Notes under the pieces: model-generated
Told to the model about the DNA's origin: nothing
The model's input: the letters and a program-made list of their open reading frames with translations, nothing else
The model's database searches: none
Part shown: one piece after another, positions 48,844 through 56,063 of the stretch
Layout of the letters: the number at the start of each line of letters is the position of its first letter
How positions within the stretch are numbered: the first letter of the stretch is position 1
From: a virus
Length of the DNA: 64,000 nt
IMG/VR virus record: IMGVR_UViG_3300049218_000295
Span: 104,949-168,948 of that record
Strand: one strand, 5' to 3'
Made by a program: the position numbers and the translations under genes

Positions 48844-49458
48844 CTACACCCAGCGGAAAATATACCCGCCTGCTGACTTGTACCCGTTTTTACCCCGCAG
48901 GCAATTTCTAATATGCCCTCGGTCCACATTCAGTTTGTGCGCAGCATCACGTACCATTAAGAATTCGCCCACTTTCTCACCTGTCTCTTTATTGAAAACC
49001 TCAAAAGGCTTTGCGCCATTACTCAAAGCGATTTTGGTCCTGTGTTCAGCGCTGTTGACATGACCGTGGCGTCGTTGGTTAGCAGCGACAATCGCAGCTA
49101 TTACTTTTGGCTGTTTCATTCTCAGTCGAACTACGTCGGAGATTCTTTGCTTGGTGATGAGGTTATGGGTGGCTTTCTCACCACCTTTAGTCAAATTGAA
49201 GCCACTGGTGGGATCTGTTGAGTCATAATGGTCAATCCAGAAAATCTCGCGTCGGCAGGCTTCTTCCCAGGTTGCACATTCCTCAATTATAGACCAAACA
49301 AACGCAGCCTTACCATACTTTCCTAAAGCTCTAGAAAAGTGCGAACTTTGTTTCCCAGCTTTGCTTTCGTGGTGCCATCTCCTATCTTTCAATCCCCTGC
49401 TTGTGATTCCGATATATACACGTCCGTCTGCATGAGTAGCCTTATAGACAACTATCAT
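48844..49458 (-). CDS. GIY-YIG homing endonuclease with NUMOD-type C-terminal domain
   Basis: VVYK...RVYIG.T, RE.FWI..Y, GFNLT.GG; AA..L......I..CL.GK....AGGYIF. Confidence 0.88.
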   Translation of the reverse strand: MIVVYKATHADGRVYIGITSRGLKDRRWHHESKAGKQSSHFSRALGKYGKAAFVWSIIEECATWEEACRREIFWIDHYDSTDPTSGFNLTKGGEKATHNLITKQRISDVVRLRMKQPKVIAAIVAANQRRHGHVNSAEHRTKIALSNGAKPFEVFNKETGEKVGEFLMVRDAAHKLNVDRGHIRNCLRGKNGYKSAGGYIFRWV

Positions 49459-49479: not shown

Positions 49480-50136
49480 TTAATCGTAGTCCCAAGGGTC
49501 AAGCCAAAGGCGCAATAGGCTTTTTTGGTCGGCAAAAGCATCCCAATCGCCCTTGGCAATCATACGTTCTTCCCAGCGTCGCATGCCACGGTTTCCGAGA
49601 GTACGACAGTACTTGCGTGCGCCCACACCCCGACGCCAATTACCGTAGTCTCGGCGGCGACTACGGGTGAAGCCCTTTTTGTCGCGCCAGTCCTTCTTCT
49701 TTTGCTTTTCGGCCTCGACTTCGGGGTCACGCTCTTTAGCGGAATAGTCCACTGGGATTTTTTGGCGGTAGTGCGCACCGTTGCGAGGGTACCAATGGGA
49801 ATAATCGTCGCGGAGACAGCTACAGTAGCGACGATAACGGTGATGTCTTTCGCAAACACGTGGCAGGCCGCCATTAAGAACGGCGGTCTCGAACTCTTTA
49901 TAGGAGAGTTTGAGTTGCCCACCACCGCGACCAAGGTGGTAGAGATAGGTAAGAGTATCAAGTCGGATTTGATGGCTGGGCTTTACAGGCTCGGGTTCGG
50001 GGTCACGCCAAGGGGCGTAGTAGCGATATGGGGGTGCCCAGCAGGGGTCACCGTGCTGAGATTTGTAGAATTCATAAGCGGATGCTATGAACTGACGTTG
50101 AACGTCTTCGGTCCAAGGGGATGATACAGAATGCAT
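49480..50136 (-). CDS. Arg-rich hypothetical protein
   Basis: 218 aa; SD located in a hairpin. Confidence 0.65.
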   Translation of the reverse strand: MHSVSSPWTEDVQRQFIASAYEFYKSQHGDPCWAPPYRYYAPWRDPEPEPVKPSHQIRLDTLTYLYHLGRGGGQLKLSYKEFETAVLNGGLPRVCERHHRYRRYCSCLRDDYSHWYPRNGAHYRQKIPVDYSAKERDPEVEAEKQKKKDWRDKKGFTRSRRRDYGNWRRGVGARKYCRTLGNRGMRRWEERMIAKGDWDAFADQKSLLRLWLDPWDYD

Positions 50137-50324
50137 AGTTTATAGGCTCCTTTACTAATGACCTATAAACATATAGTCCTCCCTTTGTGTGTCAAGTGAT
50201 GAAAGATTGCGCCGAGAGCGGTGAACAAGTCCCCAAGACCAGCCGCTATAATTGGACAACCCTTTGAGGCCTTTTTGGGGCCTCACATCAAAGGTAACAC
50301 AGGTTGTGGACCATGTCAATCCAT

Positions 50325-51077
50325 TTATTTGAATTGCTTGATTTGCTTGGACAGTTCTATGGCTTGCTTTACGCGTTTTATTGCTTCTTCACAATATTTG
50401 GGTTCAATTTCAATCCCAATGGTTCTGCGCCCTTCAAGGATCGCAGCAATACAGGTAGAGCCGGTACCCATAAAGGGATCGAACACGATTTCATTTTGTC
50501 CAGTAGACATTTCAATGAGCTGTGTAAGCAAGGCGATTGGTTTTTGAGTGGGGTGAGTACGTGAAGTTTCTCCCGACCGACTTACGCGCAGTACTGTGCC
50601 TTTACGCAGTCGGGCAGCAAGCTGCCCAGTCTTTTCAGAACGCTTGCCAGTATAACGTTTAACACCAAACCAAATTGGTTCATGGCTCTTGCCCCAAGGA
50701 ATTGTAAGATCTCCCGCAGACATTGAGGATTTATCCCAAATTAAATCTGTCACACCGCCCACTTCATTTGGAATTGTCTGACTAGGAGTAATCGGGCCAA
50801 AAACGTACCCATGACGGTTGATTTTGAGTTCTCGCCACGACTTGTTCAAAATTTCCAAGACTTTAGTATAATCGTCATCGCCTGTAATGCCATCAAATTG
50901 TTCGAGCACGTCTCGACTATTGGTCTTATAACCGTTGCAATACGGTGGATCGGTGAGCAACAAGTCATAGACTCGTCTTGCTGCCCCAATACCCTCTGCT
51001 GGCAGTTCAGGAATAACTTCGAGAGCGTCACCGCAATAGAGAATGACGCCCTCAGATTCAAATATTGGTTTAATCAC
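50325..51077 (-). CDS. Amino (N4-C/N6-A) DNA methyltransferase, beta class
   Basis: TDPPY, HPTQKP, FDPFMGTGST, GIEI. Confidence 0.92.
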   Translation of the reverse strand: MIKPIFESEGVILYCGDALEVIPELPAEGIGAARRVYDLLLTDPPYCNGYKTNSRDVLEQFDGITGDDDYTKVLEILNKSWRELKINRHGYVFGPITPSQTIPNEVGGVTDLIWDKSSMSAGDLTIPWGKSHEPIWFGVKRYTGKRSEKTGQLAARLRKGTVLRVSRSGETSRTHPTQKPIALLTQLIEMSTGQNEIVFDPFMGTGSTCIAAILEGRRTIGIEIEPKYCEEAIKRVKQAIELSKQIKQFK

Positions 51078-51594
51078 TTAATCCCATCACCCAATCTGCA
51101 AGCTCCTCAACTTCGGAGTCTCTGGGTATTTGTGTCATAATTTTGACCTTAATATCATAAGATTCCAGATCTTCTTTGAGGCTATAATGTTCAGAACCCG
51201 AAGTTGCAAAACCGTTCATATCTTGAACCAGATCCAGATGTAACAAGAAATTTTTAACCATTCCATGTTTTGGGTCCGAACGACGTTGGAGCATAGCCGA
51301 TCCCAATGCATCCTTGTAACCTTTTTTACAATTTTTGTGATCGTGTTTTCCTGTTATCTCGTGGTGCTTGGTGGTGTTCACTTTTATTTCAACACAGTGT
51401 ATCACACCATCTTTATCCAAATAAGCATCAGTGTTTGACTTTAAACCCGGATGAACTCTACCAGCTATTAAACCACGCTGAACAAAAATTCTGACCAGTT
51501 TGTCAGCTAAAAATCTTCCAGTATCTGCGGCTGCGTAAATCTTGTGCTCGGTTAGGCTAATTGCTTTTTTAGCGGGATTCTTTGATTTGCTCAT
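51070..51594 (-). CDS. PD-(D/E)XK-like protein
   Basis: NTDAY...CVEIK; overlaps the MTase start; AT-rich. Confidence 0.5.
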   Translation of the reverse strand: MSKSKNPAKKAISLTEHKIYAAADTGRFLADKLVRIFVQRGLIAGRVHPGLKSNTDAYLDKDGVIHCVEIKVNTTKHHEITGKHDHKNCKKGYKDALGSAMLQRRSDPKHGMVKNFLLHLDLVQDMNGFATSGSEHYSLKEDLESYDIKVKIMTQIPRDSEVEELADWVMGLSD

Positions 51595-51691
51595 TTGGTA
51601 TTTTATGACCTTTTCAGAATCGCCCAGGCCACCGCCAGAAATTTATGGTTAACCAATATTACCGTTTATAAAAGAACAAAGGAGGCACTCT

Positions 51692-51730
51692 ATGACTTAT
51701 CACTAGGTATCACTTGATAAACCACCCTAA
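51692..51730 (+). promoter_or_regulatory. Leader ORF with internal amber: MTYH-TAG-VSLDKPP-TAA
   Basis: AAGGAGG SD at 51679-51685; ATG ACT TAT CAC TAG GTA TCA CTT GAT AAA CCA CCC TAA. Confidence 0.55.
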
Positions 51731-51780
51731 TTCTTCTTGGTCCCCGAATTGTATCCCAACAATCAACCAAGGAGAAATCA

Positions 51781-52173
51781 ATGCGTACTTACAAATCTGC
51801 TACCCTCAACCGTCTGAAATCTGAACTCAAAAATCTCACAGCCACCATCAAAGTGGAAAAACCTGCTTATCGCACCGCTTACAGTGAAGCTGCCCGCGAT
51901 ATTGGGCCGTGGTCCGCCGTAACTACTCACGGTAGTGAACTCGGCAATGCTCAATACGAATTTCGCCATAAGCATATTGTATATTGCTTATTGCGAGGTC
52001 GTACTATGGAGCAGATTGAGAACAAGCCTCGCTGCGCCAATGAGAAGGGTTATTGCTACAAATGTAATCATCCCAACAAGAAGCGTATCGAGACTGAGTT
52101 GGCTGAATGTCAAGAGGCAATGGAAAAAGAGAAGGCTGCTGCTTTGAATGAGGCCCAACGTGCCGTGGGTTGA
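51781..52173 (+). CDS. Hypothetical phage protein
   Basis: FRHKHIVYCLLRGRT.EQIE; AAGGAG SD. Confidence 0.75.
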   Translation: MRTYKSATLNRLKSELKNLTATIKVEKPAYRTAYSEAARDIGPWSAVTTHGSELGNAQYEFRHKHIVYCLLRGRTMEQIENKPRCANEKGYCYKCNHPNKKRIETELAECQEAMEKEKAAALNEAQRAVG

Positions 52174-52687
52174 ACTAAAGAAATATCCTTTTCACCAAGA
52201 TGAGCGGGCTTCATGCCCGCTCTACTTGAGTGAGAAATCGTTTAAAGAAGTCGAGTCGGAAATGGCCGATATTCGTGAGGAATTCGCACATCTCGGCGTT
52301 TCCGACGTTCGGTTCAACAGTCATTTCAAGAGCCATGGCTATGGGGCCTACACAACCTGGTGGACTCTGGAAGGATGGTACGATGAGTAACTATTAGGAA
52401 TGCGTTGGTTGTGCGGGGGATAAAGTTTACCTTCTTGTGAAAGATGGTAAGGTTTATCGTGCTACTTTCAGTTTTTCACTGGCTGAACACCTTTCTCAGG
52501 GCCATTATGAGATTCGGCGGGTAGGGCTCAAATTAGGAAAGGTGCTTTCTTCCGGGGAAACAAGCTCATCTGGATTGTATGCGGTTGTCGCTCATCGGAG
52601 AGACCGTATCTTGCGGGTGAGTTTAATCAAGGACGTGGCCAACATGTTAGTAGATGGAACAAGGTACATAGCGGAGGTATGGGTATC

Positions 52688-53113
52688 ATGAGTGAAAAGA
52701 AATTGACGCCAAAAGAGCGAGCGGAGCAAAGCTATCAAACGATGCAAAGAACCTATGAGTTGAACCAAAAGCTCAAAGAAATTGGTGTTATCGACGAGGA
52801 CGCCCTGGGCAAAGTACTTTATGAACAAGGTACCGTCGACCGAGTGAACGATAAACTCTACTGCGTGGTTGATGCCACTCTTTCTAAGTCACAGCAGGGC
52901 GTACAGGCAGCGCACGGAGTGGCTCAGTATTTGCTTGAACACCGAGATACAAAATGGAACAATGGCACGCTCATTATCCTGAAGTCTTATGACCTTAGCC
53001 AGTGGGAAGATTGGGCGGAATCAATGTTCCGGGAACCAGACCTCGATAATCGAGTTACTGCCTGTGTATCCTTTGGAAAACCAGACCCGTCTAGTTACTG
53101 CCCGCTGATGTGA
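52688..53113 (+). CDS. Divergent Pth2-like peptidyl-tRNA hydrolase
   Basis: KLYCVV...LS..QQGVQAAH, W.NGTLI.L, FREPDL.NRVTA. Confidence 0.7.
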   Translation: MSEKKLTPKERAEQSYQTMQRTYELNQKLKEIGVIDEDALGKVLYEQGTVDRVNDKLYCVVDATLSKSQQGVQAAHGVAQYLLEHRDTKWNNGTLIILKSYDLSQWEDWAESMFREPDLDNRVTACVSFGKPDPSSYCPLM

Positions 53114-55133: not shown

Positions 55134-55355
55134 TCAACGCGTGATGCCACGTTTTTTGAGAATCGCAATTATCTCTCTTGGCGAGACAACTCTGGCACCC
55201 GGAAGTTTGGAACCACGCATCCTCTTGGGCACATCGTAGTGAGGGTGCCTCCCGCGATGGAACCAACAACGTTTGATGCCAATCGAATTGCAGTAGGCCT
55301 CTAGTTCTGCTTCTGAAACATCGGAGACGATGTGAATTCCATCAGTATAGATCAA
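55134..55355 (-). CDS. DUF4031-like small protein
   Basis: H..SD....EL......IG..R.WF....HPHYD. Confidence 0.75.
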   Translation of the reverse strand: MIYTDGIHIVSDVSEAELEAYCNSIGIKRCWFHRGRHPHYDVPKRMRGSKLPGARVVSPREIIAILKKRGITR

Positions 55356-55882
55356 GCCACCAAGCCAAGAGCGTTAAGCCCATTTTGATGGGCTTGGGAT
55401 GCCTGTTTCAAGGCTTTACTACCTGCTAGTGCTCGAAAGGCCTGTTCATGAAACTTTTCATCGGGGAGAATGGCTGCAAAAACTTGACGGATGTCCTCTG
55501 GAGCGGACTGGTCGTGGGCAATGACTTTAATCCGAGCCAGACGCATTTTTTCAGCGTGCGCACCAATTGCAGCAATTTCTTTCAGTGGCAGAGATTGGTA
55601 ATCTTTTGGTAGAGTCTGCTCCCAATAACGAGATTTCTTTTTCAAAACTTGGGGTTTGATGCCGCGACTCTTAAGCAGTTTGGAGACCCAGAGCGCGTGT
55701 TTCGCTTCTTGTAGCGCAATCAAGTCTAAACAGGCTTTATCGGTCCCTGCGGGCAGTGCTTTGGCCAGACTCTTGATGCGACGTGCAGCAGTCACTTCAC
55801 CGTGGTATTGGTCTTTGAGCCAGGGTATCAAAGCCTTAGGATTGTTCTTAACTTCATTCCACCACTGTTTACTTGTTCTCAT
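55352..55882 (-). CDS. Ferritin-like di-iron protein
   Basis: GE..A, QE.KH, AE, DE.FH. Confidence 0.8.
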   Translation of the reverse strand: MRTSKQWWNEVKNNPKALIPWLKDQYHGEVTAARRIKSLAKALPAGTDKACLDLIALQEAKHALWVSKLLKSRGIKPQVLKKKSRYWEQTLPKDYQSLPLKEIAAIGAHAEKMRLARIKVIAHDQSAPEDIRQVFAAILPDEKFHEQAFRALAGSKALKQASQAHQNGLNALGLVA

Positions 55883-55908
55883 AAGTACCTCTCCTATCAA
55901 AATAACTG

Positions 55909-55981
55909 AGGCCCCGACGGGAGTCGAACCCATGTACTAGGTTTTAGAAACCTCTGCTCTAACCAACTGAGCTACGGGACC
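55909..55981 (-). tRNA. Amber suppressor tRNA (CTA) 1
   Basis: GAGGT-TTCTAAA-ACCTA; acceptor GGTCCCG/CGGGGCC, U73; no encoded CCA. Confidence 0.85.
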
Positions 55982-55990
55982 ATATAAAGG

Positions 55991-56063
55991 CGCACCGGGT
56001 GGGGTTCGAACCCACGACACGCAGCTTTAGAAGCTGCTCCTCTACCAACTGAGGTACCGGTGC
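55991..56063 (-). tRNA. Amber suppressor tRNA (CTA) 2
   Basis: GCAGC-TTCTAAA-GCTGC; acceptor GCACCGG/CCGGTGC, G73; followed by CCT. Confidence 0.9.

What the first reader, a model, noticed from the sequence alone, without database searches (positions are those of the whole stretch)
51679..53113. Amber-interrupted leader ending Pro-Pro-stop ahead of a Pth2-like operon: a termination/readthrough sensor?
Seen: a strong SD, then MTYH-TAG-VSLDKPP-TAA, with TTATCA/TGATAA pairing across the amber, 50 nt before an operon ending in a Pth2-like gene. Known: Pro-Pro-stop impairs termination and stalls ribosomes, minigenes cause peptidyl-tRNA drop-off, and Pth recycles peptidyl-tRNA. Inference: only ribosomes reading through UAG (low RF1 activity or phage suppressor tRNAs) reach the stall site and switch on rescue genes. 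This would give the CUA tRNAs a regulatory role without genome recoding.
Basis: partly seen in the sequence, partly recalled or inferred. Interest (0 to 1): 0.7.

Follow-up and report, generated by a model that had tools for sequence, protein, structure and literature searches.

The report
Amber-gated leader sensing suppressor tRNA
A 12-codon leader gene with a UAG stop in its middle sits ahead of a phage operon, and dozens of distant phages keep the same design next to a UAG-reading tRNA, so it most likely switches the operon on only when that stop is read through.

Summary
The window has AGGAGG, then ATG-ACT-TAT-CAC-TAG-GTA-TCA-CTT-GAT-AAA-CCA-CCC-TAA (51692-51730). It lies 50 nt before gene 51781-52173.

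- Conservation: I collected 64 non-redundant loci with homologs of that gene (30-50% identity). Of the 62 with enough upstream sequence, 57 have an in-frame TAG followed by Pro-Pro just upstream (background 3%); 43 of the 64 fit the strict SD-ATG...TAG...PP-stop form.
- Reading frame: TAG lies in the Pro-Pro frame 61 times, against 3 and 6 in the other frames. All four Pro codons are used, and the base after TAG is always a purine.
- Hairpin: the sequence right after the leader stop pairs with the next gene's SD in a locus-specific way (0 of 5000 permutations match it).
- Cassette: leader, gene-1 family, Pth2-like protein, then a same-strand tRNA-CUA.

Best reading: ribosomes released at UAG leave the SD hidden. 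Ribosomes that read UAG with the phage suppressor tRNA pause at Pro-Pro-stop, open the hairpin and turn on translation.

This scan has already noted the same design in at least 46 other genomes. I found no published description. The mechanism is inferred; nothing has been tested experimentally.

The parts
51680..51685 (+). Shine-Dalgarno (AGGAGG) of the leader, 6 nt before its ATG
   Evidence: a strong SD precedes most homologous leaders
51692..51730 (+). Leader ORF M-T-Y-H-UAG-V-S-L-D-K-P-P-UAA
   Evidence: the only strict-pattern hit in the 169-kb genome; same design in 43 of 64 (strict) and 57 of 62 (lenient) related loci
51704..51706 (+). In-frame amber codon followed by G. This is the gate.
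   Evidence: TAG lies in the Pro-Pro frame 61 times versus 3 and 6; a purine follows TAG in 56 of 56 cases; there are never fewer than 5 codons between the last TAG and the stop
51719..51730 (+). Lys-Pro-Pro-stop (AAA CCA CCC TAA), the inferred termination-pause site
   Evidence: K or R precedes PP in 32 of 43 leaders and all four Pro codons are used at both positions; a C-terminal Pro-Pro impairs termination (PMC3834316)
51731..51741 (+). Anti-SD arm TTCTTCTTGGT, starting right after the leader stop
   Evidence: window duplex -15.2 kcal/mol, z -4.35 against shuffles; the arm starts -3 to +5 nt from the stop in 31 of 36 loci
51766..51776 (+). SD arm ACCAAGGAGAA, containing the SD of gene 1
51781..52173 (+). 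Gene 1: 130-aa helical protein of unknown function (family motif FRHKHIVYCLLRGRTMEQIE), the first regulated gene
   Evidence: 27 homologs; close homologs start at the same MRTYK; AF2 pLDDT 87.5, no informative fold match
52160..52691 (+). Two small ORFs (about 52160-52390 and 52437-52691) inserted between gene 1 and the Pth2-like gene. Specific to this phage.
   Evidence: no counterpart downstream of gene 1 in the related loci; no Pfam or PHROG match
52679..53113 (+). Pth2-like protein (domain about 52844-53113), the second core gene of the cassette
   Evidence: follows gene 1 in 49 of 55 loci; profile against PDB Pth2; fold; L053 has a bona fide PF01981 protein at this position
55908..56063 (-). 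Two different tRNA genes with anticodon CUA (55908-55981 and 55989-56063). Here they lie on the opposite strand, 2.8 kb away.
   Evidence: in relatives the tRNA-CUA lies on the same strand, a median 314 nt after gene 1

Best explanation
This is a leader-peptide translational attenuator whose input is amber read-through.

Shown by sequence and comparison:
- A mini-ORF with a strong SD carries an in-frame UAG 5 to 9 codons ahead of a (Lys/Arg)-Pro-Pro-stop.
- That stop abuts the 5' arm of a hairpin that buries the SD of the next gene.

Inferred:
- A ribosome released by RF1 at the UAG stays too far upstream to touch the inner stem, so gene 1 stays off, and with it probably the translationally linked downstream genes.
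- A ribosome that decodes UAG with the phage's tRNA-CUA runs on to Pro-Pro-stop, where termination is slow. It sits on the 5' arm, frees the SD and lets a second ribosome initiate.
- The module therefore reports how well UAG is being read through. It couples that signal to a Pth2-type hydrolase and a helical partner protein of unknown function.
For: - Leader present.
- Conserved design: strict pattern in 43 of 64 loci; lenient pattern in 57 of 62 loci against a 3% background; 44 hits upstream against 2 elsewhere.
- Translation through TAG: TAG frame counts 61/3/6, while TAA and TGA are depleted in that frame at 12 versus 27 and 37. Pro codons are CCT/CCA/CCG/CCC at both positions, K/R precedes PP, and TAG is always followed by a purine.
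- Hairpin: native arm pairs average -13.1 kcal/mol against -7.2 for cross-locus pairs, and 0 of 5000 derangements reach the native mean. Composition-preserving shuffles give mean z -3.2, and the window gives z -4.35.
- Geometry: the 5' arm starts -3 to +5 nt from the stop in 31 of 36 loci, and the pairing covers the SD zone in 33 of 36.
- Link to suppressors: 48 of 101 tRNAs in these loci are CUA. A same-strand tRNA-CUA lies downstream in 29 of 41 loci with enough sequence.
- TAG is decoded in relatives: five relatives carry TAG-purine inside the Pth2-like gene itself.
- Independent sampling: a leader-motif DNA search finds the same leader before a different protein that ends in the Pth2-like domain.
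- Pro-Pro-stop pauses termination in all contexts tested (PMC3834316).
Against: - There is no experiment. Stalling, read-through and the sign of regulation are all inferred.
- The whole 131-nt region folds only slightly better than shuffles (z -1.4).
- In this phage the tRNA-CUA genes are not in the operon; they are 2.8 kb away on the other strand.
- Five of 62 loci lack the lenient pattern.
- Some variants have no stop after PP.
- Gene 1 has no known function, so the biological output is unknown.
Confidence: 0.7

Rival explanations
1. Monitoring-substrate model. The Pro-Pro-stop stall reports the activity of the downstream Pth2-like/gene-1 products, which would resolve the stalled peptidyl-tRNA(Pro) complex, as SecM reports SecA activity. 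The TAG is secondary or simply a sense codon in these phages.
For: Known arrest leaders usually monitor the product they control (PMC7897499 and PMC12992588). Pro-Pro-stop pauses accumulate peptidyl-prolyl-tRNA, a Pth-type substrate. The Pth2-type gene is the most constant partner of the leader.
Against: This does not explain why one or two in-frame TAGs are kept in nearly every leader, always with a purine after them and at least 5 codons before the stop. It also does not explain the linkage to tRNA-CUA. The window phage uses TAG as a stop in 47 of 226 genes. The two models can coexist.
Confidence: 0.15
2. RNA-only element. The conserved sequence after the TAG (for example GGUUUUCAAGCCUCC) acts as an RNA motif or anti-SD mimic. 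Ribosomes always stop at the UAG, so the upstream part is just a 2- to 5-codon mini-ORF.
For: CCUCC resembles the 3' end of 16S rRNA. In one subgroup the Pro codons themselves pair with the SD.
Against: The middle base of CCNCC is T in only 16 of 43 leaders, and all four Pro codons occur. Spacing varies but stays a multiple of three. TAA and TGA are avoided in that frame, and three different stop codons follow PP in frame. There is no Rfam match.
Confidence: 0.07
3. The main output is transcriptional. Translation of gene 1 prevents Rho-type polarity, so the leader chiefly controls transcription of the downstream tRNA-CUA. This would be positive feedback on suppressor supply.
For: In most relatives the tRNA-CUA lies on the same strand a few hundred bases downstream of the two genes.
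Against: In the window itself the tRNA-CUA genes are on the other strand, yet the leader and hairpin are intact. No terminator or rut analysis supports it. It would add to the translational switch rather than replace it.
Confidence: 0.1
4. A chance short ORF in a divergent intergenic region.
For: Within this one genome the pattern is expected about 0.75 times by chance.
Against: The pattern recurs at the same place in 43 to 57 of about 62 highly diverged loci, with covarying pairing.
Confidence: 0.01

Closest known systems
erm/cat-type leader-peptide translational attenuation; also the arrest leaders MifM and SecM
   Same: A short uORF with its own SD. A ribosome paused in it melts a hairpin that hides the SD of the next gene.
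   Different: In those systems the pause is reached by any translating ribosome and is triggered by a drug or by the activity of a secretion factor. Here access to the pause site is gated by an in-frame UAG, so the input is stop-codon read-through.
C-terminal Pro-Pro termination pause (YbeL-PP; PMC3834316) and TnaC-type stalling at a stop codon (PMC8450073)
   Same: Pro-Pro directly before a stop codon, which is known to slow peptide release.
   Different: Those are not coupled to an upstream amber codon or to a suppressor tRNA. The nascent chain here is only 12 residues.
RAPP/RGPP arrest peptides (ApdA, ApdP, ApcA; PMC10951233, PMC12992588)
   Same: A subgroup of the relatives ends in ...TAG-V-R-G-P-P-Y... 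or ...R-A-P-P..., the exact arrest motif.
   Different: The window's leader ends D-K-P-P-stop. The Arg that is irreplaceable in RAPP peptides is absent, and a stop, not Pro, follows.
prfB (RF2) autoregulation through an early in-frame UGA
   Same: A stop codon placed early in an ORF is used as a meter of how that stop is decoded.
   Different: There is no frameshift. Gene 1 has its own SD and ATG and lies in the -1 frame, and its homologs start at the same Met. The outcome is hairpin opening, not synthesis of a fused product.
Synthetic amber codons placed in the tna/trp leader to make expression depend on a suppressor tRNA (reviewed in PMC6412442)
   Same: The same logic: the downstream genes need the leader to be translated beyond an inserted UAG.
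   Different: That is an engineered transcriptional switch. This is a natural, widely conserved translational one.
'Code change modules' of stop-codon-recoded phages (bioRxiv 10.1101/2021.08.26.457843)
   Same: Phage suppressor tRNA genes are clustered with translation-related genes.
   Different: That work describes no leader or sensor. The window phage is not recoded.

Membership tests
Leader-peptide translational attenuators (erm/cat type) | Short uORF with its own ribosome-binding site just upstream of the regulated gene | tested here: met
   AGGAGG, 6 nt, then ATG at 51692; the leader stop is 50 nt before gene 1. Leader-to-gene distance is 50-62 nt in most loci.
Leader-peptide translational attenuators (erm/cat type) | Hairpin that sequesters the SD of the regulated gene, with one arm within reach of a ribosome paused in the uORF | tested here: met
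   51731-41 pairs with 51766-76. The pairing is locus-specific across 43 loci. The arm starts -3 to +5 nt from the stop in 31 of 36 loci.
Leader-peptide translational attenuators (erm/cat type) | Ribosome pausing at a defined codon of the uORF | not testable with these tools
   A conserved Pro-Pro-stop is present. Pausing is inferred from PMC3834316 and needs toeprinting or ribosome profiling.
RAPP/RGPP arrest peptides | Arg two residues before the P-site Pro (R-[A/G/S/P]-P with Pro in the A site); Arg is irreplaceable (PMC12992588) | tested here: not met
   The window leader ends D-K-P-P-stop. The feature is met in a subgroup of relatives with VRGPP or IRAPP.
C-terminal Pro-Pro termination pause | Two Pro codons immediately before the stop codon | tested here: met
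   CCA CCC TAA at 51722-30. The same holds in 43 loci, with TAA 24 times, TGA 12 and TAG 7.
PTH2 peptidyl-tRNA hydrolase (PF01981), for ORF 52679-53113 | Score above Pfam's gathering threshold | tested here: not met
   No PTH2 hit for the window protein. The L001 homolog scores 14.6 bits against a 23-bit cut-off.
PTH2 peptidyl-tRNA hydrolase (PF01981), for ORF 52679-53113 | Pth2 fold and profile-level sequence similarity | tested here: met
   The family profile hits 24bt_A and 2zv3_A at E 4e-5 and 1e-4. The AF2 model has pLDDT 93.9, and the top Foldseek hits are all Pth2 with TM 0.67-0.75. L053 has a true PF01981 protein (85 bits) at the same cassette position.
PTH2 peptidyl-tRNA hydrolase (PF01981), for ORF 52679-53113 | Catalytic residues of Pth2 conserved | tested here: inconclusive
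   The Q..H motif aligns with AQxxHA of Pth2. E64, D66 and T72 are invariant in the family. The HMM alignment stops before the Pth2 catalytic Asp region, so equivalence is not established.
prfB-type programmed frameshift | Leader and downstream ORF joined by a +1 shift at the in-frame stop | tested here: not met
   Gene 1 is in the -1 (+2) frame relative to the leader and has its own AAGGAG-ATG. Homologs begin at the same Met.
Stop-codon-recoded (code 15) phage | TAG rarely used as a stop, and in-frame TAGs in many genes | tested here: not met
   TAG ends 47 of 226 crude gene calls. No excess of TAG-split genes.

The most novel reading that the evidence does not exclude
The cassette is a self-contained homeostat for stop-codon read-through. 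The leader measures how efficiently UAG is decoded. The Pth2-like enzyme, with the helical gene-1 protein as a tRNA- or ribosome-binding partner, then acts back on the suppressor tRNA by hydrolysing its aminoacyl or peptidyl form, or by clearing the complexes it creates. This would hold read-through at a set level in a phage that still needs TAG as a stop.
Probability: 0.2. Interest if true: 0.9.

Novelty: new variant of a known kind. Interest (0 to 1): 0.8.

Why it matters
Many phages that use the standard code carry amber-suppressor tRNAs with no known target. This element gives those tRNAs a concrete, testable target: a dedicated sensor that turns suppressor activity, set against RF1, into gene expression.

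It would be the first natural counterpart of the engineered 'amber codon in a leader' switches. It bears on how phages time or limit stop-codon read-through and on how recoding may begin. It also links a phage-specific Pth2-type enzyme and an uncharacterised helical protein to suppressor tRNA biology.

The design is compact: about 100 nt from the leader's SD to the start of gene 1. It can be tested directly with reporters.

Tried and rejected
- **Frameshift fusion of the leader to gene 1.** Rejected. The frame is wrong (-1), gene 1 has its own SD and ATG, and homolog N-termini start at the same Met.
- **A second amber start in the same operon** (ATG 52383, M-S-N-Y-TAG-ECVGC...). Homologs start near the GTG at 52437 and lack the extension, so it is not supported.
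- **Genome-wide TAG gating or recoding in this phage.** Not found.
- **Hairpin across the amber (TTATCA/TGATAA).** Not conserved.
- **The MFIGH-TAG mini-ORF at 50171-50154(-)**, noted by another reader. It is followed at once by TAA and has no Pro-Pro, so it is a different thing.
- **DNA and protein searches of the cultured-phage collection.** No match.
- **Rfam.** No match.
- **Single-protein locus searches with ORF4 and with the divergent neighbour gene.** Nothing found.
- **Function of gene 1.** Fold search and the ESM Atlas returned only generic helical hairpins. NCBIfam returned nothing.
- **Crude per-locus test for recoding in relatives.** It gave no clear signal.

Full report
**1. What is in the window**

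The window is the last 64 kb of a 168,948-bp single-contig phage genome. It holds 26 tRNA genes, including two different tRNAs with anticodon CUA at 55908-56063 on the minus strand.

The finding lies in a 186-nt gap between divergent genes (51070-51594 on the minus strand, 51781-52173 on the plus strand). The sequence reads AGGAGG (51680-85), a 6-nt spacer, then ATG ACT TAT CAC TAG GTA TCA CTT GAT AAA CCA CCC TAA (51692-51730). That is M-T-Y-H-amber-V-S-L-D-K-P-P-ochre. Gene 1 starts 50 nt later at 51781 behind its own AAGGAG.

Directly after the leader stop, TTCTTCTTGGT (51731-41) can pair over 11 positions with ACCAAGGAGAA (51766-76), which contains that SD. This helix is in the predicted minimum-energy and centroid folds. 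An earlier first-reader note on this genome pointed to the pairing, and I tested it below.

**2. Is it more than chance?**

Within this genome alone it is not. The strict pattern is ATG, 1-9 codons, TAG, then up to 16 codons free of TAA and TGA, CCN-CCN, stop. It occurs once on both strands of the genome, at the leader. Markov simulations give about 0.75.

The comparison with relatives decides the matter. Gene 1 belongs to a family of small proteins (motif FRHKHIVYCLLRGRTMEQIE). An alignment-based search returned 80 metagenome loci and 34 viral loci, which collapse to 64 non-redundant loci sharing 30-50% protein identity with the window.
- 43 of the 64 have a strict in-frame SD-ATG...TAG...Pro-Pro-stop leader ending 50-117 nt upstream of the gene, mostly 50-62 nt.
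- With a lenient pattern (TAG, 2-11 codons, CCN-CCN in frame), 57 of 62 loci qualify, against 3% of background windows.
- The strict pattern hits 44 times upstream of the gene and twice elsewhere in 260 kb on both strands.

**3. Is the part after the TAG translated?**

Several observations say yes.
- I counted TAG triplets within 45 nt upstream of the Pro-Pro pair without assuming a frame. They fall 61, 3 and 6 times in the three frames. TAA and TGA are depleted in the Pro-Pro frame (12, against 27 and 37).
- Both Pro positions use all four codons (CCT 16, CCA 16, CCG 7, CCC 4 at the first; similar at the second). So the constraint is on proline, not on a CCUCC RNA word.
- The preceding residue is Lys or Arg in 32 of 43 leaders.
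- The stop after PP is TAA, TGA or TAG.
- Thirteen leaders carry two in-frame TAGs.
- Every one of 56 TAGs is followed by a purine, usually as a Val or Ile codon.
- There are never fewer than five codons between the last TAG and the stop.
- Five relatives also have a TAG-purine inside the Pth2-like gene at conserved positions, so TAG is decoded in those phages.

**4. The hairpin**

For each of the 43 leaders I computed the duplex energy between the 25 nt around and after the leader stop and the 28 nt ending at the gene's start.
- Native pairs average -13.1 kcal/mol and cross-locus pairs -7.2. None of 5000 derangements reached the native mean.
- Shuffling the 5' arm within each locus, which keeps composition, gives mean z -3.2 and p <= 0.05 in 29 of 43 loci. 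The window gives z -4.35.
- A same-locus control segment 25 nt further upstream pairs far less well (-5.4 kcal/mol; Wilcoxon p = 1e-7).
- In 31 of the 36 loci with a duplex of -9 kcal/mol or better, the 5' arm starts -3 to +5 nt from the first base of the leader stop. In 33 of 36 the pairing covers at least four bases of the SD zone.

So a ribosome with the leader stop in its A site would hold most of the 5' arm inside its mRNA channel. A ribosome stopped at the TAG, at least 18 nt upstream, would not.

**5. The cassette**

- In 49 of 55 loci with enough downstream sequence, gene 1 is followed, usually with a short overlap, by a roughly 95-aa protein of the window's ORF4 family.
- A tRNA with anticodon CUA lies on the same strand a median 314 nt after gene 1, in 29 of 41 loci with at least 1 kb of room. 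Of 101 tRNAs in these loci, 48 are CUA.
- A separate DNA search with the leader consensus alone found seven viral loci. Three of them are new leader sequences. In two of those three, the leader precedes a 245-aa protein with an unrelated N-terminal part and the same Pth2-like domain at its C-terminus, and one of these has a tRNA-CUA downstream.
- In the window the cassette is loosened. Two small phage-specific ORFs sit between gene 1 and the Pth2-like gene, and the two tRNA-CUA genes lie 2.8 kb away on the other strand.

**6. The proteins**

- The ORF4 family is a distant member of the Pth2 superfamily. Its profile hits solved Pth2 structures (E 4e-5 and 1e-4). The AlphaFold model (pLDDT 93.9) matches only Pth2 structures at the top of the Foldseek list. 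In L053 the same cassette position holds a true PF01981 protein (85 bits). The window protein itself is below Pfam's threshold, and I could not establish catalytic equivalence.
- Gene 1 is confidently helical (pLDDT 87.5): a long helical hairpin plus a C-terminal helix. It has no informative match by fold, Pfam, PHROGs, NCBIfam or the ESM Atlas.

**7. Mechanism**

Shown by sequence and comparison:
- a translated leader with an obligatory in-frame amber;
- a Pro-Pro pair at its end;
- a covarying SD-sequestering hairpin that begins at the leader stop;
- linkage to amber-suppressor tRNA genes.

Established from the literature: a C-terminal Pro-Pro interferes with termination in all contexts tested and leaves peptidyl-prolyl-tRNA on paused ribosomes (PMC3834316).

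Inferred: termination at UAG leaves the hairpin shut. Read-through by tRNA-CUA brings the ribosome to Pro-Pro-stop, where it dwells, opens the hairpin and allows initiation on gene 1.

Variants in relatives keep the same logic:
- In one subgroup the leader ends ...TAG-V-R-G-P-P-Y-Y... with no stop after PP. There the CCUCCU Pro codons themselves pair with the SD. R-G-P-P and R-A-P-P are established arrest motifs that resist EF-P (PMC12992588).
- In some loci the leader is the read-through extension of an upstream gene that ends in TAG.
- In L039 and L020 an M-S-H-TAG-V... leader runs up to the gene's start (an ATGA overlap in L039). That would give direct translational coupling.

The window's leader ends D-K-P-P-stop. 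It is therefore the termination-pause type, not an RAPP-type arrest peptide.

**8. What the output is for**

This remains open. The window phage is not recoded: TAG ends 47 of 226 crude gene calls, and I found no excess of TAG-split genes. The suppressors must therefore work at partial efficiency. Three readings are possible:
- feedback on the suppressor itself;
- a monitoring-substrate loop, in which the products resolve the stall.

None is tested.

**9. Prior knowledge**

- Rfam has no match, and the cultured-phage collection has no relative.
- Full-text searches found no natural amber-gated leader. The survey of recoded phages describes suppressor tRNAs and 'code change modules' but no leader. 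The theta-ribozyme paper does not mention one. The jumbo-phage overview notes PTH2 genes only as ribosome-rescue factors.
- Engineered switches with amber codons in the tna/trp leader are the closest analogue (PMC6412442).
- Within this scan the same design has already been noted in at least 46 other genomes, with follow-ups reaching a similar reading. I used their pointer to RAPP/RGPP peptides as a lead and checked it against the papers and my own loci.

**10. Limits**

- There is no experimental evidence.
- Gene starts in the loci were assigned by a simple rule, and a few are probably wrong (for example L008 and L035), which weakens their hairpin scores.
- My gene calls for the genome are crude.

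Noticed in passing
window 55352-55882 (-): The gene directly downstream of the two tRNA-CUA genes is a rubrerythrin-fold protein with a weak MiaE-like hit (tRNA ms2io6A hydroxylase family; E 0.0027, below threshold). A37 modification of tRNAs that read UNN codons affects amber suppressors, so the neighbourhood may be meaningful.
   Followed up: partly
window 52383-52397 (+): ATG-AGT-AAC-TAT-TAG behind a good SD overlaps the end of ORF2 and is in frame with the 84-aa ORF 52437-52691. Read through, it would give M-S-N-Y-x-ECVGC.... Homologs start near the GTG at 52437 and lack this extension, so it is probably only a mini-ORF.
   Followed up: yes
window 50154-50171 (-): A mini-ORF M-F-I-G-H-TAG-TAA behind GGAGG lies just upstream of the SD of gene 49480-50136 (-). 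It has a double stop and no Pro-Pro, so it is not the same element as the leader studied here.
   Followed up: partly
G000:C1 about 87257 (-), outside the window: Another start of the form strong SD, ATG, 4 codons, TAG-A, in frame with a 96-aa ORF (M-S-F-F-T-TAG-T-L-C-M...).
   Followed up: no
L013:212-572, L044:807-1133, L090:1105-1436, L108:472-847: Phage-encoded tmRNA genes lie 2-2.5 kb upstream of the leader cassette in four related loci. This suggests a translation-rescue gene neighbourhood.
   Followed up: no
L011, L012, L046, L070, L103 (Pth2-like genes): In five relatives the Pth2-like gene itself is interrupted by a single in-frame TAG followed by a purine. The enzyme would then be gated twice by suppression.
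   Followed up: partly
L104 and L008 (gene 1 homologs of 186-189 aa): In L104 gene 1 and the Pth2-like domain seem to be fused in one reading frame; L008's gene-1 homolog is also unusually long, about 189 aa. This would fit the two proteins acting together.
   Followed up: no
window 48844-49458 (-) and 50325-51077 (-): A GIY-YIG-type endonuclease-like ORF (judged by eye from its N-terminal motif) and an N6/N4 DNA methyltransferase (PF01555, 97.7 bits) lie just upstream of the divergent gene.
   Followed up: no
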